A stretch of DNA of 64,000 nt from Gammaproteobacteria bacterium (GCA_021156165.1 JAJNBM010000001.1:8577-72576); one strand, 5' to 3'. Positions 26,503 to 34,294 are shown, counted from the first letter of the stretch. Program-made: numbers and translations. Notes: a model not told the origin generated them from the letters alone.

Positions 26503-27821
26503 GTGATGAGAGCTATGATATTGTTATTGTAGGCGGAGGCCTAGTAGGCAATAGCTTAGCTTTGGCTTTAGCCCAATCCTCTTTACAAATAGCCGTTGTT
26601 GAAGCTATCGATTATGAACAAAAAACAGAAATTTCTATCCATAGCATTTCGAGTTGCGACGAGGCGTGTGCGCAGACGAGCAGCGCAGTGTACATACCAG
26701 TACATGAGCAGCGAGACAAGCATACAACAAAGTCGCAGCTTGAAAGGCGAAGGGTAGAAGACAATCGTGCTATAGGTCTCTCGTACACCTCCCAACGCAT
26801 TTTACAAAAACTAGGCGTGTGGCCGCAAATAGAAGCTAAAGCGCATCCTATAGACAGTGTACACATTTCATTGCAAGGCCGTTTTGGGGTAGCCACTATT
26901 TCAGCTGCAGAGCAGGGCTTGGCATCCTTGGGTTGTAATATCGATATTCATTATTTACAAAAAATTCTAGCGCACAGGGTGCGTTTAGAGGCTTTGGCTT
27001 TGTACGCACCCTATCGAGTCAACCTCTGCCATCGTGTGGAGGGACAATGGCAATTAACTTTGACGAATGGGCCTATAGAAAAAAAACTTAAAGCACGTTT
27101 AGTGGTTGCTGCAGATGGCAGTGATTCTGAATTAAGGCGTACTATGGGCATCACTGCACAAGTATGGGATTATCAGCAAAGTGCCTTAGTGTCCCGCTTA
27201 ACTTTCAGTAAACCTTTAAATAACCGATCCTATGAGCGCTTTACGCCTCTAGGCTTAATGGCCATATTGCCCGCAGGCGCACATGAAGCCACTTTCATTT
27301 GGAGCACAACGCACGACCAAGCCGCTTATTGGCAAAACGCCGATGAAAAAATAGTGTTGCAGCAATTGCAAAATATATGGGGTTATAGATTAGGGCGTTT
27401 GCAAAGCGCATCGCCCGCTGTTCATTACCCATTGCGACGTATAGAGGCCAATCAATTATATCAAGAGGGCTTCGTTTTAATAGGAAATGCCGCACAGACT
27501 TTGCATCCGGTAGCAGCGCAAGGTTTTAATTTAGGTTTGCGCAGTGCCATGATGTTGGCTGAAGTGTTGTGCTCGGCGCAAAAGGGTGGTCGTGATTATG
27601 CTGAGGCGGCTATTTTGGCTGAATATGTGGCTAAACAAGCCTTAGATAGAAAGCAGATCGCGCGGTTTACGCACTTTTTAGTGAGTCGTTTCGCCGCAGA
27701 CAGGGAATTTTTCAACCAGTGGCGACCTTTGGCTTTGTGCGGTTTAGAATGGGTTCCAGGAGCCAAATCTTTATTGGCGCGTTTAGGCTTAGGGGGCGCG
27801 CAAAAAGCATTATGGGTGTAG
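26487..27821 (+). CDS. ubiH: 2-octaprenyl-6-methoxyphenol hydroxylase-like FAD monooxygenase
   Basis: FAD Rossmann DIVIVGGGLVGNSLALAL, GD motif LVVAADGSDS, C-terminal LIGNAAQTLHPVAAQGFNLGLRS; carries a ~35-aa insertion after the Rossmann fold. Confidence 0.8.
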   Translation: MDGAMSDESYDIVIVGGGLVGNSLALALAQSSLQIAVVEAIDYEQKTEISIHSISSCDEACAQTSSAVYIPVHEQRDKHTTKSQLERRRVEDNRAIGLSYTSQRILQKLGVWPQIEAKAHPIDSVHISLQGRFGVATISAAEQGLASLGCNIDIHYLQKILAHRVRLEALALYAPYRVNLCHRVEGQWQLTLTNGPIEKKLKARLVVAADGSDSELRRTMGITAQVWDYQQSALVSRLTFSKPLNNRSYERFTPLGLMAILPAGAHEATFIWSTTHDQAAYWQNADEKIVLQQLQNIWGYRLGRLQSASPAVHYPLRRIEANQLYQEGFVLIGNAAQTLHPVAAQGFNLGLRSAMMLAEVLCSAQKGGRDYAEAAILAEYVAKQALDRKQIARFTHFLVSRFAADREFFNQWRPLALCGLEWVPGAKSLLARLGLGGAQKALWV

Positions 27822-29005
27822 TAAAAGAACAGTATAATATAATCATCGTTGGCGGCGGTATAGTAGGTTTAACCTTGGCTTTGTTGTTGGCGCAAAGCGA
27901 TAAACGCATAGCATTAATAGAGAAAAGAGCTAAAATAGAATCTTTTAATCGTGCACAATATGATGTGCGTGTGAGCGCGGTAACACCCGCTTCTGTTAAG
28001 CTGTTTGAACAGTTATCCGTTTGGAAGGACATGGTGGCGTTACGCGTCAGCCCTTTTACGCATATGCATGTTTGGGATGGGGATGGCCGCGGTAAAATTG
28101 AATTTGACGCGGCAAGTGCGGGCGTGAATCAATTGGGTTATATAGTAGAAAATAATGTAATGTTACAAGCGCTGTGGCAACGCGTCGCGTCTACAGCGCA
28201 AATTGAAGTGTTAAGCGATATCGAATTAGAATACTTAGAACGACATGAAAATAACCCTAACATCGAATTACACGGCGGCGATAGGATTTTAACTGCACCG
28301 CTGGTTATAGGCGCCGATGGCGCGCAGTCGTGGTTGCGGCAAGCGGCCCACATTGCTATGACGGAACGCGATTATCAACACCATGCTTTGGTGTGTACGG
28401 TCAAAACAGAAAAAGCCCACGATAAAACAGCGCGGCAGCGTTTTATGACAGAAGGGCCATTGGCATTTTTGCCGCTAGATGCAGCGCATTATTCTTCTAT
28501 TGTTTGGTCCAGTGCGCCTACCCATATTGATGCCTTGATGCAATTATCAGATGAGGGTTTTGCTCTAGCGCTAACAGACGCTTTTCAATCTCAATTAGGT
28601 GCGGTAATAGAAGTGGGGCCACGAGCAAGATTTCCTTTAATTATGCGTCATGCACAGCACTATGTACAAGCCGGTTTAGCCTTAGTCGGCGATGCCGCAC
28701 ACACGGTGCATCCTTTGGCAGGACAAGGTTTAAATTTAGGTTTAGCGGATGCAGCCTTATTAGCGGAATTGGTGTTAGAAGAGTACGCCCATAAAAATGA
28801 GTATGTAAAATACAGTACTTTAAGGCGCTATGAACGTGCACGCAAGACAGAGAATGCAACCATGTTAGCGGCTATGGATGGTTTTAAGCACTTATTTGGC
28901 AATGATATCCCTGTGATTAAATGGCTACGTCATCGTGGTTTGAATTTAACAGATCGCTCGAGCTTTATTAAGAGTTTGATTTTACAAAAAGCGATGGGGG
29001 TTTGA
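27812..29005 (+). CDS. ubiI: FAD-dependent ubiquinone biosynthesis hydroxylase (UbiI/VisC or UbiF-like)
   Basis: NIIIVGGGIVGLTLALLL, VIGADGAQSWLR, LVGDAAHTVHPLAGQGLNLGLAD; start moved to the internal ATG overlapping the ubiH stop. Confidence 0.8.
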   Translation: MGVVKEQYNIIIVGGGIVGLTLALLLAQSDKRIALIEKRAKIESFNRAQYDVRVSAVTPASVKLFEQLSVWKDMVALRVSPFTHMHVWDGDGRGKIEFDAASAGVNQLGYIVENNVMLQALWQRVASTAQIEVLSDIELEYLERHENNPNIELHGGDRILTAPLVIGADGAQSWLRQAAHIAMTERDYQHHALVCTVKTEKAHDKTARQRFMTEGPLAFLPLDAAHYSSIVWSSAPTHIDALMQLSDEGFALALTDAFQSQLGAVIEVGPRARFPLIMRHAQHYVQAGLALVGDAAHTVHPLAGQGLNLGLADAALLAELVLEEYAHKNEYVKYSTLRRYERARKTENATMLAAMDGFKHLFGNDIPVIKWLRHRGLNLTDRSSFIKSLILQKAMGV

Positions 29006-30054
29006 ACAATATGAAAAATGATAATCCCAGCCTCCAATCAGGCCATAATTTGATCAATCCTATTCGTGAACTGATCGTGGCTGCTCGAGGGCAGGTGCTG
29101 CGGGCTATCAATGGCAGTATGGTAGAAACTTATTGGAATATAGGCCGTTTGATTGTTGAAGAAGAGCAGGCAGGTGAACAGCGGGCAGCTTATGGCAAGC
29201 AGCAATTACAGCATTTGGCCAAAGAATTGACAAAAGAATTTGGAAAAGGCTTTGATGTGCGAAACTTGAGCAACATGCGTGCATTTTACCTTACTTTCTC
29301 AAATTGGAACGCAGTGCGTACCGAATTGAGCTGGACTCACTATCGGGCTTTAATCCGTATCGAAAATATACAAGCCCGAAAATGGTATATGCAAGAGACT
29401 ATTGCTCAAAGCTGGAGTGCACGCGCCCTTGAACGGCAAATATCGGTGCTTTATTATGAACGATTATTATCTAGTCAAGATCGGGCTTCGGTAATAGAAG
29501 AAGCAAAGGAAAAAGCCTCATCGTTAAATGAGAATAAACATGACTATCTAAGAGACCCTTATATCTTAGATTTTTTAAATCTTGATGGGCAACCATTCTT
29601 AGAAACAGATCTAGAGCAAGGCATTATTAACAATCTGCAAAAATTTCTCTTAGAGTTAGGGAAGGGTTTTGCTTTTGTGGCGCGCCAAGAGCGTATTCGC
29701 ACTGAAGATCAGGATTTTTATCTAGACCTGGTTTTTTACAATTTTAAACTAAAATGTTTTTTGCTGATTGATCTTAAACTGGGAAAACTCAATCATCAAG
29801 ATGTTGGCCAGATGGATACGTATATTCGCATTTATGATCAACATCGTAAAAATAGCGACGATAATCCTACCATAGGTTTAATCCTTTGTAGCCAAAAAAG
29901 CGAAGCGGTGGTTAAATACTCCGTTCTTACGGACAGCAAACAAATGTTTGCCGCAAAATATTTGGATCATCTGCCTACAGAGCAAGAGTTAAAACAGGAG
30001 CTAGAACGAGAGCGAGCTTTAGTACAAGAGCAATTGGAGAGTAAGTATGAGTGA
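29002..30054 (+). CDS. DUF1016/YhcG-like PD-(D/E)xK nuclease family protein
   Basis: C-terminal FYLDLVFYNFKLKCFLLIDLKLGKL fits a PD-(D/E)xK core with YhcG-type N-terminal helical domain; TTG/ATG start abuts the ubiI stop. Confidence 0.55.
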   Translation: MNNMKNDNPSLQSGHNLINPIRELIVAARGQVLRAINGSMVETYWNIGRLIVEEEQAGEQRAAYGKQQLQHLAKELTKEFGKGFDVRNLSNMRAFYLTFSNWNAVRTELSWTHYRALIRIENIQARKWYMQETIAQSWSARALERQISVLYYERLLSSQDRASVIEEAKEKASSLNENKHDYLRDPYILDFLNLDGQPFLETDLEQGIINNLQKFLLELGKGFAFVARQERIRTEDQDFYLDLVFYNFKLKCFLLIDLKLGKLNHQDVGQMDTYIRIYDQHRKNSDDNPTIGLILCSQKSEAVVKYSVLTDSKQMFAAKYLDHLPTEQELKQELERERALVQEQLESKYE

Positions 30055-30090
30055 TTTTTTCTGTATGCATTGGCGGGGGTGATTTATTAA

Positions 30091-33000
30091 ATGGAATTAG
30101 AAACAAAAGATGTAAAACAAGCTTATCTTTATTTAAAAAGCTATACCTACCAAGAAAATTTGAACTTATTTTTAAAGCAGAGAGTTGCAAAGTTTGAATG
30201 CGAATCATTTGATAGTAGCATTGAAAAAATTGTTCAAGTGCTTAAGTCTGAAGCCCCTCTAGACACAGAAGCTTTTAAGAAATGGTTATCAGAAATTGAC
30301 TATCATTTAATTCCTAAAACGGTTATCCGTCCAGAAGAGGAAACTCAGGGGAAGGGCGCCGATAGTAAAAAAGAAGGATTATTATATATTAGCAACGTTA
30401 AAACATCAAAAGAATATAAAATAAAGGCTAACTATTTTATTAATGCGCCTGTAGAGCTTCATATTATTGATGTGCTATGGTGCTTAGTTGTTGGTGCAGT
30501 TTTAGAGGATGATTTAACTAGAGATTGTTATGGTAATCGGATGCACGAACCTGCAAAAAAATTTAAGAATCCTAGTAGACCGAATCAAACACAATTATTT
30601 AAATATTATATTGATCAATATAATGAATGGCGTGATAAAGCAATCAATACAGCAATAGAACTATCAAAAAGCAAAGAAGATGTTGCTGTATTATCTTTAG
30701 ATTTAAAGTCTTACTTTTATCATATTGATTTGGATTTTAATTTAATAACAGATCGCATAGAAAGATCTAACAAAGGTGAATGGCGAGACTGTGCATTAAT
30801 GCTCACTAGGCTACTGGAAAAAATTTTTTCCAAGTATAGCTATAGAATTAGACCATTCTTAACGTTTACACATAATGACTGTAAAGATAAGCGAAGTTTG
30901 CCTATAGGATTTACTTCTTCTTCTATATTAGCTAACTGGTATTTAGTAGCATTTGATAAAGCTATTTCTGATGATGTTAGACCTGTTTATTATGGACGCT
31001 ATGTTGATGATATTTTAATGGTCTTTAAGCGTCCTAAAGTTAGTGCTTTTAATGAAATAGCAAGTTTTATAGAACATTATTTCCCCAACCTACTCAACAA
31101 GGGAACAAAAGAAGGGCTATATACTACTGTAATAGAAAAGAATGAATTGCCTATTCAAGAAGAAAAAATTATCTTTCAATATTTTAATAAAGAGCACAGC
31201 CCCGCTGGGCTAGAAGTTTTTAAACAGGAATTAGAAGAAAATAGCAGCGCATTTAAATTTCTACCTACTGATCATATTGATAAAGATCTAAACAAATTTG
31301 CCTATGACATTCTATATGATGGCTCCGCTAATAAATTTCGTAGTGTTATAGGGTTGGCAGAAAATGAGGCTGAACTATCAAAATATTTAACTAACCATAT
31401 TATTGCGCATCGTCTTTGTAAATCCAGTAGGAATGATAGCATATTACAGGATTTATCTCTATTTTTCAAAGGCAAAAATGCCTTAAGATTTAGCCGTATA
31501 TGGGAAAAAGTTTATCAATATGCTGTTGTTATAGGCGATAATAATTTTATTATAAAGTTTTTTGAAGATCTAGAGAATGAGATTGAAAAAGTATATGTCG
31601 TTAATGTATCTGCAATGGAGCACAGCGATGACGATAAAGAAAAACAGTATAAATTAACAGAAAAATTAAAGGAAGATTTACAATTATATAACCAGCTGTC
31701 CTTAGCACTTACGATGGCGCTTTTAGGCACAACAATAGAAGATATATCTTTATTTAGGAGTATGTCAAATATAAAAAATCAAGAAAAATTAAAAATGCTT
31801 ATCAAGAAATTAAATCCTGATTTAAACTATTTCAGAAGATCCAATTTGATCCGAGACAAATTAGTTGCATGGCCTTTAGCAAATTATAGTGATTTTAAAG
31901 GAGACCTGACAAAAGAAGAGTCAATTGCACATCCATGTCATAAAAAGTTAGATCCAAAAAAATTAGAATTAACCCCTCGTTTTATCCACTTCGATGAATG
32001 GCAAATATTTCATTTGCTGAATACATTAAGTAATGAAGAAGACTTAATGAAATCTCAACAGGATTCACTTAAAAAATATAAAAAGCGTTGCTTTGGAGAA
32101 ATCTTTCCTGTTAGCTATTCCGAAAAGTATGACTTTTGTTCAATGTCAGATTTGCAGGATGAAGAAAGTATAGAGAGTGGGAAAATCTATATAGATGTTG
32201 AGAAGAAAGCTTATAAAGTTCTTGACTTATCTAATGTAGTACAATCTGGTTCATTACAAAACATATTTTTGTCAGAGAATCTGTTTGACCCTAAGCTTAA
32301 TGAAGGAATCTTAGAATCCATATCAAAAGCAGGTCATGTTCAATGGGAGCCTGATAAATCAGTAGCAATTGAGACAAGAATAGTAACTATTGGAGAAAAG
32401 CCAAAAACCTCAGCATTACGTATAGCCTTGGCTAATTTACGTATCAATGAGAAGGACATAGAAAATGCAATCAGAAATGACCAAAAGCCGAACATTAGCT
32501 TTAAACGTCAAAAAAATCTCTATCAGATATTGAATGATGCAGTTAGAGAAGGAGTTCATCTACTTCTTATGCCAGAAGTTTCTATTCCAGTTAGCTGGTT
32601 GCCATTTATGGTAGCACATGCGCGTAGGCATCAATTGGCAATAATATTTGGGCTAGAACATTGGGTTATAGGTGAAAATGTTTATAACCTTTTAATAGAA
32701 GCTTTGCCTTTTAAAATATCGGGAAAATATAAATCCTGTGCTATGTTAGCACGGCTTAAAAATCATTATGCGCCAGAAGAGATATCGGCTATTAGATCGT
32801 TGCGTTTAAAGCCAGCTAACAATAACAAAAAAAAATTACCTAAACCCTATTACCACAAGGTAAAGTGGAATGGTATTAGTTTTGCAACTTATAATTGTTT
32901 TGAGCTTTCAGATATAGAGCATAGGACGCTTTTTAAGTCTAAAATTGATATTCTTTTTGCCTGTGTATGGAATAAAGATACAAATTACTATGAGCATATA

Positions 33001-33264
33001 CTTGAATCAGCGGTAAGAGACCTGCATTGTTATGTTGTCCAATCTAATACGGCCCAATATGGTGGGTCATGTGTCCTAAAGCCTGCCAAAACTGAGCATA
33101 AGACTATGCTTTACGTAAAAGGAGGCAATAATACCTGCATTTTAACTGTAGATCTAGATATTGAGGCTTTAAGAAAATTCCAATATCAATCAGAACCTAA
33201 TGAGAAAGATGAGTTTAAACATTTGCCGCCAGGATTCAACTCTAAGGAGGTCTTAGATAGGTGA
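30091..33264 (+). CDS. reverse transcriptase fused to C-terminal nitrilase (carbon-nitrogen hydrolase) domain; UG/Abi class 1, DRT1-like defence RT
   Basis: RT motif A VLSLDLKSYFYHIDLD (30691..30720), motif B-like FTSSSILANWYL, motif C YYGRYVDDILMV (YVDD at 31000..31011); long helical middle region; nitrilase triad LLLMPE (Glu codon 32575..32577), YYHKVKW (32857..32865), TYNCFELSD (Cys codon 32897..32899); AT-rich relative to flanks. Confidence 0.8.
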   Translation: MELETKDVKQAYLYLKSYTYQENLNLFLKQRVAKFECESFDSSIEKIVQVLKSEAPLDTEAFKKWLSEIDYHLIPKTVIRPEEETQGKGADSKKEGLLYISNVKTSKEYKIKANYFINAPVELHIIDVLWCLVVGAVLEDDLTRDCYGNRMHEPAKKFKNPSRPNQTQLFKYYIDQYNEWRDKAINTAIELSKSKEDVAVLSLDLKSYFYHIDLDFNLITDRIERSNKGEWRDCALMLTRLLEKIFSKYSYRIRPFLTFTHNDCKDKRSLPIGFTSSSILANWYLVAFDKAISDDVRPVYYGRYVDDILMVFKRPKVSAFNEIASFIEHYFPNLLNKGTKEGLYTTVIEKNELPIQEEKIIFQYFNKEHSPAGLEVFKQELEENSSAFKFLPTDHIDKDLNKFAYDILYDGSANKFRSVIGLAENEAELSKYLTNHIIAHRLCKSSRNDSILQDLSLFFKGKNALRFSRIWEKVYQYAVVIGDNNFIIKFFEDLENEIEKVYVVNVSAMEHSDDDKEKQYKLTEKLKEDLQLYNQLSLALTMALLGTTIEDISLFRSMSNIKNQEKLKMLIKKLNPDLNYFRRSNLIRDKLVAWPLANYSDFKGDLTKEESIAHPCHKKLDPKKLELTPRFIHFDEWQIFHLLNTLSNEEDLMKSQQDSLKKYKKRCFGEIFPVSYSEKYDFCSMSDLQDEESIESGKIYIDVEKKAYKVLDLSNVVQSGSLQNIFLSENLFDPKLNEGILESISKAGHVQWEPDKSVAIETRIVTIGEKPKTSALRIALANLRINEKDIENAIRNDQKPNISFKRQKNLYQILNDAVREGVHLLLMPEVSIPVSWLPFMVAHARRHQLAIIFGLEHWVIGENVYNLLIEALPFKISGKYKSCAMLARLKNHYAPEEISAIRSLRLKPANNNKKKLPKPYYHKVKWNGISFATYNCFELSDIEHRTLFKSKIDILFACVWNKDTNYYEHILESAVRDLHCYVVQSNTAQYGGSCVLKPAKTEHKTMLYVKGGNNTCILTVDLDIEALRKFQYQSEPNEKDEFKHLPPGFNSKEVLDR

Positions 33265-33946
33265 GAACATTTCCTTATACAATAATCGATCTCACGCACA
33301 CTCTAGACGAAAACATCCCTTCGTGGAATGGTGACTGCGGATTTCAGTGTCAAATTACTTGGGATTATTCTGATTGTACTACAGGGCCAAAATTCCGCAC
33401 ACAGGAGTTGATTATGCGAGCAGGAATGGGCACGCATATGGATGCGTCAGCGCACTGCATTCCCGGAGCGGCTAGCATTGAACGAATCCCCTTGTCGCAG
33501 TTGTGCGCGCCTGGCGTTGTGATTGATGTTTCAGCAGCGTGTCATGAACGTTATAGTGTATCGACACAAGATATAGCGCAATTTGAAAATGAATACGGCG
33601 CTATTGCCAGCGGTACTTTTGTGATGGTCAAAACAGGCTGGGAGCGTTTTTGGCATACTCCAAAAAAATACCATAATAACCATCTTTTTCCTTCTATATC
33701 TATAGAAGCCGCTGAGTTGCTGATAAATAGAGGCGTCTGTGGATTGGTATAGATACTTTATCTCCGGATCGGCCCGAAAATGGCTTCCCAGTTCATCAAT
33801 TATTTTTGGGAAAAGAAAAATACCTGGTTGAAAATGCGGCTCATTTGGATGATTTGCCTGCACAAGGAAGCTGGATTTTAGTATTGCCTATGAAAATAAA
33901 AGATGCAACAGAAGCACCTATTAGATTGATAGCTTTGGTGGAGTAG
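33261..33946 (+). pseudogene. cyclase-family (kynurenine formamidase-like) gene disrupted by a frameshift near 33745
   Basis: frame 1 encodes the HxGTHxDxPxH cyclase motif (GMGTHMDASAHC) and stops at 33752; the C-terminal part (GIDTLSPDRPENGFPVHQLFLGKE...IRLIALVE*) continues in another frame to 33946. Confidence 0.6.
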
Positions 33947-33955
33947 CGCTATAAA

Positions 33956-34294
33956 ATGACAATCATTAGTTACGAAGAATTTGACAAAGTTGATTTACGC
34001 TGCGGCACAGTCGTAAAAGTTGAAGCATTTCCCAAAGCGAGAAAACCTGCTTTTAAAGTTTGGGCTAATTTTGGCGCAGAGATAGGTGTTTTGCAAACGT
34101 CGGCGCAAGTGACAGTTCATTATACGCTTGAGAGTTTATTAGGCCGAAAAATTGTAGGCTGTGTCAACTTAGGAGAAAAGAATATTGCCGGATTTATCTC
34201 GCAGTTTCTTCTGTTGGGATTTGCGGATGAAGCGGGGGATATATTACTAACCGCGGTGGATCCTAAAGTTCCTAATGGGCGAAAGATGCATTAA
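33956..34294 (+). CDS. tRNA-binding domain protein (CsaA/YgjH, Myf domain)
   Basis: FDKVDLRCGTVVKVEAFPKARKPAFKVWANFG...VGCVNLGEKNIAGF is typical of the OB-fold tRNA-binding domain. Confidence 0.8.
   Translation: MTIISYEEFDKVDLRCGTVVKVEAFPKARKPAFKVWANFGAEIGVLQTSAQVTVHYTLESLLGRKIVGCVNLGEKNIAGFISQFLLLGFADEAGDILLTAVDPKVPNGRKMH

What the first reader, a model, noticed from the sequence alone, without database searches (positions are those of the whole stretch)
30091..33264. Reverse transcriptase fused to a nitrilase domain: a defence-type (UG/Abi class 1, DRT1-like) RT inserted in a housekeeping locus
The 1057-aa ORF carries all three core RT motifs: motif A (LSLDLKSYFYHIDLD), motif B-like (FTSSSILANWYL) and motif C (YYGRYVDDILMV). 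A roughly 450-aa helical middle region follows. The C-terminal domain has the nitrilase-superfamily Glu-Lys-Cys triad in the right order and context: LLLMPE, YHKVKW and TYNCFELSD. This RT, helical-repeat, nitrilase order is the architecture reported for the DRT1/UG1-type antiphage reverse transcriptases. Among retroelement classes the nitrilase fusion is, as far as I know, specific to UG/Abi class 1 RTs. No integrase, maturase X-domain or retron-like msr/msd structure is visible nearby. The gene is conspicuously AT-richer than the flanking ubiI and tRNA-binding genes, which suggests horizontal acquisition. To my knowledge such systems have not been characterised in an obligate or facultative intracellular Legionellales genome.
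Basis: partly seen in the sequence, partly recalled or inferred. Interest (0 to 1): 0.9.

Follow-up and report, generated by a model that had tools for sequence, protein, structure and literature searches.

The report
UG5-type antiphage reverse transcriptase–nitrilase gene
This is an intact member of an already described family of bacterial antiviral enzymes (reverse transcriptase fused to a nitrilase; UG5-large, "DRT11"). It sits in a small variable gene island of an uncultured Legionellales-like bacterium, so it is a correct but largely ordinary find, with one odd extra 76-residue domain.

Summary
The 1057-aa ORF at 30091-33264 (+) is real and is a reverse transcriptase fused to a C-terminal nitrilase-superfamily domain. 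It matches the PADLOC RT_UG5-nitrilase profiles over its full length (962 and 815 bits) and Drt1a only weakly (98 bits). It is therefore UG5-large, which is UG/Abi class 3 in Mestre 2022, not "class 1 / DRT1".

UG5-large was shown to be antiviral in 2026 (DRT11, S. meliloti). [quoted passage not shown]

All catalytic residues are invariant: D204, Y304-V-D-D307, E829, K890, C936 and E938.

No TM partner gene lies next to it, and the flanks (36 nt upstream, none downstream) leave no room for an ncRNA.

Comparative loci place the gene, with a YhcG PD-(D/E)XK nuclease, in a low-GC variable island between the second ubiH/ubiF-like monooxygenase gene and a cyclase gene. One sister lineage keeps the pair; another lacks it.

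One unusual feature is a 76-aa folded module (aa 674-749) inserted before the nitrilase. It is unique to this organism and is otherwise seen only as repeats in two orphan proteins. Its weak best fold match is the insertion domain of Legionella MvcA/MavC.

Verdict: new member of a known kind; modest interest.

The parts
30091..33264 (+). RT-nitrilase fusion gene, 1057 aa; UG5-large / DRT11-type, UG/Abi class 3
   Evidence: ORF. PADLOC RT_UG5-nitrilase PDLC02995 962 bits and PDLC03780 815 bits over the full length. 554 homologs, most about 980 aa. A Shine-Dalgarno-like GGGGGTGA lies about 9 nt upstream of the ATG.
30397..31185 (+). Reverse-transcriptase core (about aa 103-365) with motif A (30691-30735, D204), motif B-like (30910-30945) and motif C (30988-31023; Y304-V-D-D307 = 31000-31011)
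31237..31266 (+). Conserved E383-N-S-S386-A-F-K-F-L-P392 segment at the edge of a disordered loop (aa 387-418). Ser386 (31246-31248) is a candidate protein-priming residue (inference only).
   Evidence: S385 and S386 are invariant in 33 homologs. E383, S386 and P392 are also kept in DRT11 and the E. coli MS 69-1 UG5-large protein. pLDDT is below 50 for aa 387-418. The position, 79 residues after the last Asp of YVDD, matches DRT1 Ser402, which is 77 after, inside the unresolved loop 382-478.
31204..32094 (+). Alpha-helical middle domain (about aa 372-668)
   Evidence: Secondary structure of the AF2 model, mostly pLDDT 70-95. DRT1 has an alpha-helical repeat domain in the same position.
32110..32337 (+). 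76-aa inserted module (aa 674-749), unique to this organism's copy
32368..33261 (+). Nitrilase-superfamily (CN-hydrolase) domain (about aa 760-1057). Catalytic residues: E829 (32575-32577), K890 (32758-32760), C936 (32896-32898), E938 (32902-32904).
33214..33237 (+). Conserved C-terminal tail motif F1042-K-H-L-P-P-G-F1049, a possible active-site lid or domain-swap element (inference)
   Evidence: Nearly invariant in 33 homologs and kept in DRT11 (FKPVPDGF) and in the E. coli protein (FKPLPEGF). It resembles the DRT1 tail K1219-T-Q-P-A1223-G-F, whose K1219 and A1223 are essential.
29002..30054 (+). YhcG/DUF1016 PD-(D/E)XK nuclease gene, co-oriented, 36 nt upstream of the RT gene. It is island cargo and probably an independent candidate defence gene.
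   Evidence: Pfam DUF1016_N plus YhcG_C. PADLOC PDC-S02, 475 bits. It is adjacent to the RT in the sister genome too, but in none of 30 other UG5-large loci. GC is 0.40.
29030..33269 (.). Low-GC island segment (YhcG + RT) that replaces the 1.5-kb segment carrying a 483-aa DUF559-like gene in the related genome L035
   Evidence: blastn: window 27009-29029 aligns with L035 up to 24 nt past the stop of the second ubiH/ubiF-like gene, and window 33270-34292 aligns with the L035 cyclase and tRNA_bind genes, both at about 80% identity.
33261..33946 (+). Cyclase/arylformamidase-like pseudogene. Its start overlaps the RT stop. It is context, not part of the system.
   Evidence: A 163-aa N-terminal part (33261-33752) and a 46-aa C-terminal part in another frame (33806-33946), against an intact 228 aa in L020 and L035.

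Best explanation
The ORF encodes a single-polypeptide antiphage abortive-infection enzyme of the UG5-large group (UG/Abi class 3; the group named DRT11 in 2026).

Shown here:
- Full-length membership of the UG5-nitrilase profile family.
- An intact RT active site and an intact nitrilase E-K-C-E centre.
- Purifying selection on the nitrilase part.
- Defence-island contexts of its relatives.
- No adjacent TM gene, and no flanking space for an ncRNA.

Inferred from DRT11 genetics and DRT1 biochemistry and cryo-EM: the RT domain makes short, template-independent DNA that is covalently primed on a residue of the protein itself (candidate Ser386). These DNA adducts drive nitrilase-mediated oligomerisation into a poised but auto-inhibited assembly, in which the conserved C-terminal tail could act as the lid. 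Phage infection releases the nitrilase, whose substrate is still unknown, and this stops growth of the infected cell.

The gene sits with a YhcG nuclease in a variable low-GC island between the second ubiH/ubiF-like monooxygenase gene and a cyclase gene of a Legionellales-like MAG.
For: Family:
- PADLOC RT_UG5-nitrilase scores 962 and 815 bits over the full length, against 98 bits for Drt1a.
- The validated DRT11 protein hits the same profile PDLC03780.

Domains:
- Pfam RVT_1.
- The only PDB sequence hit of the protein itself is DRT1 9YFD, in both domains. The profile of alignment A1 also ranks DRT1 first, 84 bits.

Integrity:
- Catalytic residues are invariant in 33 homologs.
- dN/dS is 0.11 over 297 codons against the sister genome.

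Defence context:
- The upstream neighbour is the PADLOC candidate PDC-S02.
- In at least 9 of 32 genome loci of the same subclade the RT lies inside or beside a type I R-M operon. Others lie next to Cap15 or an OLD-like ATPase.
- The cassette is present in the window and its sister (L020 and the P0002 contig) and absent in L035/L036.

Mechanism from the literature:
- DRT11 needs the RT YVDD and the nitrilase Cys, needs neither a TM protein nor an ncRNA, and protects in an MOI-dependent way (PMC13436386).
- DRT1, and the proteins called 'DRT5S/DRT5L' and described as class 3, make protein-linked DNA without a template. In DRT1 the DNA adducts give tetramers and filaments, and a C-terminal lid occludes the nitrilase site (PMC13275509).

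No room for an ncRNA: the upstream gap is 36 nt and the downstream gap is zero, and Rfam finds nothing.
Against: - No experiment exists on this protein or on its subclade. It is only about 26-28% identical to DRT11 and much more distant from DRT1.
- Whether 'DRT5S/L' in PMC13275509 are UG5-small and UG5-large is my reading; the paper never writes 'UG5'.
- That paper states that the DRT1 priming Ser is not conserved in other class 3 DRTs, so Ser386 is a positional guess.
- Some UG5-large systems need a TM partner (E. coli E101, cited), and none is present here.
- The AF2 model has low confidence over aa 936-1012 of the nitrilase domain.
- The 76-aa insertion could disturb assembly.
- The adjacent cyclase gene is decaying, so gene loss is active at this locus.
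- The nitrilase substrate is unknown for the whole class.
Confidence: 0.75

Rival explanations
1. It is a UG1/DRT1-type system of 'UG/Abi class 1'.
For: Same domain order (RT, helical domain, nitrilase). DRT1 9YFD is the only PDB sequence match of the protein itself. Nitrilases of UG1 nest within the UG5 nitrilase radiation.
Against: Drt1a profiles score only 98 and 52 bits on partial stretches, against 962/815 bits over the full length for UG5-nitrilase. The protein is 1057 aa, against 1200-1300 aa for UG1. Nitrilase-linked groups are class 3 by definition.
Confidence: 0.03
2. YhcG nuclease and the RT-nitrilase form one two-gene system, in which the PD-(D/E)XK nuclease replaces the TM accessory protein as co-effector.
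For: The genes are co-oriented and 36 nt apart, with no predicted terminator between them. The pair is kept together in the sister genome and is missing together in L035. YhcG-like proteins are PADLOC defence candidates. Other UG groups are associated with PD-(D/E)XK nucleases (UG7 and cluster 17).
Against: No YhcG lies within 6 kb of the RT in 30 other UG5-large loci. GC differs, 0.40 against 0.32, which suggests separate origins. DRT11 works as a single gene.
Confidence: 0.1
3. It is a relic or a repurposed gene with no antiphage role in a host-associated bacterium, drifting toward loss or used for something else.
For: The neighbouring cyclase is a pseudogene and the 468/483-aa island gene has been deleted in the window. 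The cassette is absent from the L035 lineage. The linker carries a lineage-specific 76-aa insertion.
Against: The 1057-codon frame is uninterrupted, every catalytic residue is retained, and dN/dS is 0.11. The inserted module is itself a foldable domain rather than junk. Predicted defence systems are reported in Legionellales symbionts.
Confidence: 0.1
4. It is the RT of a mobile or templated retroelement (retron, group II intron, DGR, or a class 2 DRT with an ncRNA).
For: Weak RT-core similarity to retron, DGR and group II intron RTs, which any RT would show.
Against: Those profile scores are 30-60 bits at best, against a cut-off of 235 for retron St85. There is no X/maturase domain, no intron RNA, no msr/msd and no TR/VR. 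Rfam finds nothing. The intergenic space is 36 nt and 0 nt. No direct or inverted repeats of note flank the island.
Confidence: 0.02

Closest known systems
DRT11 = UG5-large RT-nitrilase of Sinorhizobium meliloti RMO17 pSymA (WP_040120558.1; PMC13436386)
   Same: Same PADLOC/Mestre profile family (PDLC03780, full length). Single polypeptide of about 1000 aa with an RT carrying YVDD and a C-terminal nitrilase with K-C-E. No TM partner and no ncRNA. Lies in a variable region next to other defence genes.
   Different: Only about 26-28% identical. The window protein's RT and middle part score far higher on the UG5-small model than DRT11 does, 506 against 83 bits. The window copy has an extra 76-aa module. 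It is chromosomal, in a gammaproteobacterial MAG. It is untested.
DRT1 (UG1), cryo-EM structure PDB 9YFD (PMC13275509)
   Same: Class 3. RT, alpha-helical domain, then nitrilase. Both active sites are conserved. There is a disordered loop after the RT with a conserved Ser, and a conserved C-terminal tail. It is the only PDB sequence match of the protein itself.
   Different: A different UG group: 98 bits to Drt1a. DRT1 is about 170 aa longer. The priming site and lid are not demonstrably homologous. Filament formation has not been tested for UG5.
E. coli E101 RT-nitrilase + TM system in a P2/P4 hotspot (Rousset et al. 2022, as cited in PMC9226505 and PMC13436386)
   Same: UG5-large RT-nitrilase fusion with proven antiphage activity.
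   Different: That system needs the downstream TM protein (cluster 1858). The window has no TM gene next to the RT and is not in a phage or satellite; there is no match in the phage collection.
UG5-small + separate nitrilase (cluster 249)
   Same: The RT and helical part (aa 3-647) match RT_UG5_small at 506 bits.
   Different: Here the nitrilase is fused, not a separate ORF.
AbiA / AbiK / Abi-P2 (protein-primed, template-independent UG/Abi polymerases)
   Different: They belong to other UG/Abi classes with alphaRep or HEPN domains and have no nitrilase effector.

Membership tests
UG5-large / DRT11 (UG/Abi class 3) | Best, full-length match to the UG5-nitrilase RT profile rather than to other UG/Abi groups | tested here: met
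   PDLC02995 962 bits; PDLC03780 815 bits over aa 2-1051. The next other group is Drt1a at 98 bits. DRT11 itself hits PDLC03780.
UG5-large / DRT11 (UG/Abi class 3) | RT domain with a catalytic YxDD palm motif | tested here: met
   [not shown]
UG5-large / DRT11 (UG/Abi class 3) | C-terminally fused C-N hydrolase (nitrilase) domain with Glu-Lys-Cys(-Glu) residues | tested here: met
   [not shown]
UG5-large / DRT11 (UG/Abi class 3) | Large single polypeptide (about 1000 aa or more) | tested here: met
   1057 aa. Homologs are 950-1045 aa.
UG5-large / DRT11 (UG/Abi class 3) | Downstream TM protein (clusters 85/1858). This is optional: 31 of 299 members. | tested here: not met
   The RT stop overlaps the cyclase start, and there is no hydrophobic ORF alongside. 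It is not defining, because DRT11 also lacks it.
UG5-large / DRT11 (UG/Abi class 3) | No associated ncRNA template | tested here: inconclusive
   Only 36 nt upstream and 0 nt downstream; Rfam finds nothing. An RNA within coding sequence cannot be excluded without RNA-seq.
UG5-large / DRT11 (UG/Abi class 3) | Antiphage (abortive-infection) activity that requires both the RT and nitrilase active sites | not testable with these tools
   Needs expression and phage challenge.
UG5-large / DRT11 (UG/Abi class 3) | Location in defence islands or variable regions | tested here: met
   Low-GC island with the PDC-S02 nuclease, present or absent among sister genomes. Relatives lie inside type I R-M operons or next to Cap15 or OLD-like genes.
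UG1 / DRT1 | Best match to the Drt1a profile; length 1200-1300 aa | tested here: not met
   98 and 52 bits on partial stretches only; 1057 aa.
UG1 / DRT1 | Priming Ser402 and the C-terminal domain-swapped lid (K1219, A1223) | tested here: inconclusive
   There are positional analogues: Ser386 in a disordered loop, and the tail K1043-H-L-P-P-G-F. No significant alignment covers these segments.
UG/Abi class 1 (alphaRep-fused RTs) | RT fused to C-terminal HEAT-like alphaRep repeats, in the class 1 clade, without nitrilase association | tested here: not met
   By the published definition, nitrilase-associated UG1, UG5, UG29 and UG6 are class 3. Class 1 profiles (UG21, UG23, UG25, UG32) score 40 bits or less.
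Retron / group II intron / DGR RTs | Cognate RNA (msr/msd, intron RNA, TR) and family-specific domains or accessory genes | tested here: not met
   Retron St85 scores 35.5 bits against a cut-off of 235. No Rfam family, no tRNA, and no repeats of note.

The most novel reading that the evidence does not exclude
The 76-aa module inserted between the helical domain and the nitrilase (aa 674-749) is a lineage-specific protein-binding domain. It recurs as repeats in two orphan metagenomic proteins, and its fold is weakly similar to the insertion domain of the Legionella effectors MvcA/MavC. In this reading it gives the RT-nitrilase a new sensor or target specificity: a different phage trigger or, more boldly, an interaction with a eukaryotic host factor. 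The enzyme would then be a functionally distinct variant of class 3 DRTs in an intracellular lineage.
Probability: 0.1. Interest if true: 0.6.

Novelty: new member of a known kind. Interest (0 to 1): 0.3.

Why it matters
The gene adds an intact, selectively maintained UG5-large RT-nitrilase from a Legionellales-like, probably host-associated lineage to a family that has just become experimentally tractable.

It belongs to a large, mostly aquatic gammaproteobacterial subclade. This subclade is about 50% identical within itself but only about 26% identical to the one validated member, so it would be a useful second test case for whether the DRT1/DRT11 mechanism generalises.

Alignment across this divergence yields testable predictions:
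- Ser386 as the priming residue.
- K890 as the catalytic lysine.
- The K-x-L-P-P-G-F tail as the active-site lid.

The inserted 76-aa module marks a permissive or adaptive site in the linker. None of this changes current understanding; it is confirmation plus leads.

Tried and rejected
- Pfam CN_hydrolase: no hit at E<=0.1. The domain was established by other profiles and by structure.
- NCBIfam: only sub-threshold Drt3a and retron St85 hits.
- Phage collection: tblastn found no match.
- Plasmid collection: only distant UG5-large genes at about 26% identity, including DRT11.
- Rfam, at gathering thresholds and at E<=1: nothing relevant. No tRNA was found.
- Repeats flanking the island: only short matches consistent with chance.
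- Promoter and terminator scans: not above the shuffled expectation.
- YhcG as a conserved partner: absent from 30 other loci.
- TM partner: none here. Simple hydropathy on the downstream ORFs of 32 loci shows only a few TM candidates.
- PDB sequence search with aa 301-470, to align the DRT1 priming loop: no meaningful hit.
- The inserted module: no PDB sequence match. The word-indexed search with alignment A3 found nothing. There is no copy elsewhere in the window. The hit to P0246, an HhH-repeat protein, is treated as spurious.
- DNA of the P0002 contig could not be fetched. The same genome's fragment L020 starts inside the RT gene, so the left junction of the sister genome was not seen at nucleotide level.
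Full report
**1. The observation**

The window holds an uninterrupted ORF at 30091-33264 (+) of 1057 aa. An identical protein is deposited as MCD6044883.1, 'MAG: hypothetical protein K0R48_46 [Gammaproteobacteria bacterium]'. It also occurs on a JGI contig (L001) and an independent Logan assembly (L002).

In an alignment of 33 homologs, D204 and Y301-G-R-Y-V-D-D307 are invariant. Pfam RVT_1 is above its gathering score (33.8 against 29.6 bits).

GC is 0.324 for the gene. It is 0.45 for the second ubiH/ubiF-like monooxygenase gene (27719-29005, called ubiF below) and for the cyclase gene, and 0.419 for the whole window.

**2. The nitrilase domain**

That profile does not hit at E<=0.1. The domain is nevertheless well supported:
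- PADLOC RTasNitrilase scores 133 bits over aa 790-1050.
- The only PDB sequence match of the protein is DRT1 (9YFD), in both the RT and nitrilase parts. The match puts DRT1 C1116 on C936.
- Foldseek finds nitrilase-superfamily amidases at E about 1e-5.

Invariant residues are E829 (MPE), K890 (R-x-K-N-H-Y), and C936 with E938 (YNCFELSD). BLASTP against the validated DRT11 protein maps its published K833/C876/E878 onto K890/C936/E938.

**3. Which family**

PADLOC models give RT_UG5-nitrilase 962 bits (PDLC02995) and 815 bits (PDLC03780, aa 2-1051). RT_UG5_small scores 506 bits over aa 3-647, and Drt1a scores only 98 bits.

Mestre et al. 2022 define class 1 as alphaRep-fused RTs. They define class 3 as the large RTs fused to or associated with C-N hydrolase or phosphohydrolase domains (UG1, UG5, UG29, UG6). 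UG5-large has a fused nitrilase and sometimes a downstream TM protein (31 of 299 members). The gene is therefore UG5-large, class 3. It is not class 1 and not UG1/DRT1.

**4. What is known about that family**

- PMC13436386 (2026) shows that a UG5-large gene of S. meliloti RMO17, named DRT11, protects against podovirus-like phages in an MOI-dependent, Abi-like way. It needs the RT DD and the nitrilase Cys. It needs neither a TM protein nor an upstream ncRNA region, and RNA-seq showed no ncRNA.
- An E. coli E101 UG5-large system needs its TM partner.
- PMC13275509 (2026) shows that DRT1 makes template-free DNA primed on Ser402. The DNA adducts drive tetramer and filament assembly through the nitrilase domains. 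A domain-swapped C-terminal tail closes the nitrilase site, and phage T4 Dda is part of the activating network. Purified 'DRT5S' and 'DRT5L', which the paper calls class 3 DRTs, also make protein-linked DNA. Reading 'DRT5S/L' as UG5-small and UG5-large is my inference.
- The window protein is only about 26-28% identical to DRT11. It belongs to a subclade of about 980-aa proteins that share 45-57% identity. These come mainly from aquatic Gammaproteobacteria, with a few from other phyla.

**5. Anatomy and predictions**

The AF2 model (pLDDT 72.5, pTM 0.77) shows these segments:
- an N-terminal region and RT core, aa 1 to about 365;
- a low-confidence loop, aa 387-418;
- a helical domain, aa 372-668;
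- a low-confidence stretch, aa 683-757;
- the nitrilase fold from about aa 760.

The segment E383-N-S-S386-A-F-K-F-L-P392 is invariant in the subclade. E383, S386 and P392 persist in DRT11 and in an E. coli plasmid UG5-large protein. Ser386 lies 79 residues after the last Asp of YVDD, at the edge of a disordered loop. DRT1 Ser402 lies 77 after, inside the unresolved loop 382-478. Ser386 is therefore a candidate priming residue. This is inference, and the DRT1 paper states that its Ser is not conserved in other class 3 DRTs.

The C-terminal motif F-K1043-H-L-P-P-G-F is nearly invariant. It resembles the DRT1 tail K1219-T-Q-P-A1223-G-F, whose K and A are essential. This is also inference.

**6. 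No partner RNA or TM gene**

The RT start is 36 nt after the YhcG stop, and the RT stop overlaps the next start. Rfam finds nothing at either threshold, and no TM ORF lies alongside. This matches the minimal DRT11 layout.

**7. Genomic context and history**

Upstream lies a YhcG/DUF1016 PD-(D/E)XK nuclease, the PADLOC candidate PDC-S02 at 475 bits.

Gene orders in related genomes are:

| Genome | Relatedness to the window | Order at the locus |
|---|---|---|
| Sister genome (P0002 contig; L020 is a fragment of it) | RT 78% identical over aligned residues | pepP, ubiH, ubiF, YhcG, RT, 468-aa DUF559-like gene, intact cyclase, MFS |
| L035/L036 (GCA_027325585.1) | SpoT 89% identical | ubiF, 483-aa homolog of that gene, cyclase, tRNA_bind, ankyrin protein, MFS; no YhcG and no RT |
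| Window | - | ubiF, YhcG, RT, cyclase pseudogene, tRNA_bind, MFS |

Nucleotide homology between the window and L035 stops 24 nt after the ubiF stop and resumes at the cyclase start. About 30 nt after ubiF, L035 reads like the 5' end of yhcG. L020 carries a 40-nt copy of the cyclase 5' end directly after the RT stop. The simplest history is an ancestral island (YhcG, RT, DUF559-like gene) with later deletions. YhcG and the RT were lost in the L035 lineage, and the DUF559-like gene was lost in the window. This is suggestive, not proven.

All three cargo genes are low in GC: 0.40, 0.32 and 0.32-0.33, against about 0.43-0.45 for the flanks. A GC lower than the flanks is a family-wide trait, seen in 26 of 27 loci with a mean difference of -0.07. 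It does not date the acquisition.

YhcG is not near the RT in 30 other loci. Instead, at least 9 of 32 loci have the RT inside or beside type I R-M operons. Others lie next to Cap15, an OLD-like ATPase or an FRG protein.

dN/dS of the nitrilase part against the sister genome is 0.11, so the gene is under purifying selection.

**8. Host**

Outside the window's own uncultured clade (SpoT 80-90% identical), the best SpoT hit that carries an organism name is 67% identical. That name begins 'Legion...'. The sister locus has an ankyrin-repeat protein, and the window has a Fic protein and large orphan ORFs. This is consistent with Legionellales but unproven. Predicted defence systems are already reported in a Legionellales symbiont, so the host alone is not surprising.

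**9. The one odd feature**

The window protein has a 76-aa insertion (aa 674-749) that the sister protein and all other aligned homologs lack.

An exhaustive search of 1.84 billion representative proteins finds the same roughly 80-aa unit only as repeats in two orphan proteins. P0247 is 40% identical over the whole 76 aa; P0245 is the other.

**10. Verdict**

It also overstates novelty, because the family now has experimental validation and a mechanistic model. This is a new member of a known kind, with a lineage-specific domain insertion as a lead.

Noticed in passing
[not shown]
   Followed up: partly
window 33261-33946: The cyclase/arylformamidase-like gene is split by a frameshift into 163-aa and 46-aa pieces. 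It is intact (228 aa) in the sister genomes, so here it is a pseudogene whose start overlaps the RT stop.
   Followed up: yes
L020 893-934 and 2612-2653; window 33265-33306: In the sister genome a 40-nt copy of the cyclase 5' end follows the RT stop, ahead of a 468-aa DUF559-like gene and the real cyclase gene. The window lacks that gene and joins the RT directly to the cyclase gene, which suggests a deletion between the two repeats.
   Followed up: partly
L035 16411-16445 vs window 29006-29040: The genome that lacks YhcG and the RT keeps about 30 nt after ubiF that resemble the 5' end of yhcG (MKQDSHNLL against MKNDNPSLQ). This hints that the cassette was lost there rather than never present.
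   Followed up: partly
window 32371-33261 vs L020 2-892, compared with the flanking genes: Synonymous divergence of the RT nitrilase part between the window and the sister genome (dS 0.52) is about half that of the flanking chromosomal genes (dS about 1.0). Possible causes are a more recent exchange of the cassette or codon-bias constraint.
   Followed up: no
L009, L010, L019, L029, L031, L033 (also L008, L017, L030): In many relatives the UG5-large gene is embedded in or adjacent to a type I restriction-modification operon, with HsdS upstream and HsdR downstream.
   Followed up: partly
L020 1191-2597; L035 16496-17947: A 468/483-aa low-GC protein has a weak DUF559 (Vsr-like endonuclease) domain and a Ser-rich C-terminus. 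It is a third cargo gene of the same island, has no PADLOC match, and is absent from the window.
   Followed up: partly
window 45119-49948, 12800-14296, 9407-10690(-), 42687-44054: ORFs of 1609, 498 and 427 aa have no Pfam match, and there is a Fic-domain protein. These could be effector-like genes of a host-associated bacterium.
   Followed up: no
window 53468-53632 (-): 6S RNA (SsrS), 69.1 bits. It is the only Rfam family in the window above its gathering score.
   Followed up: no
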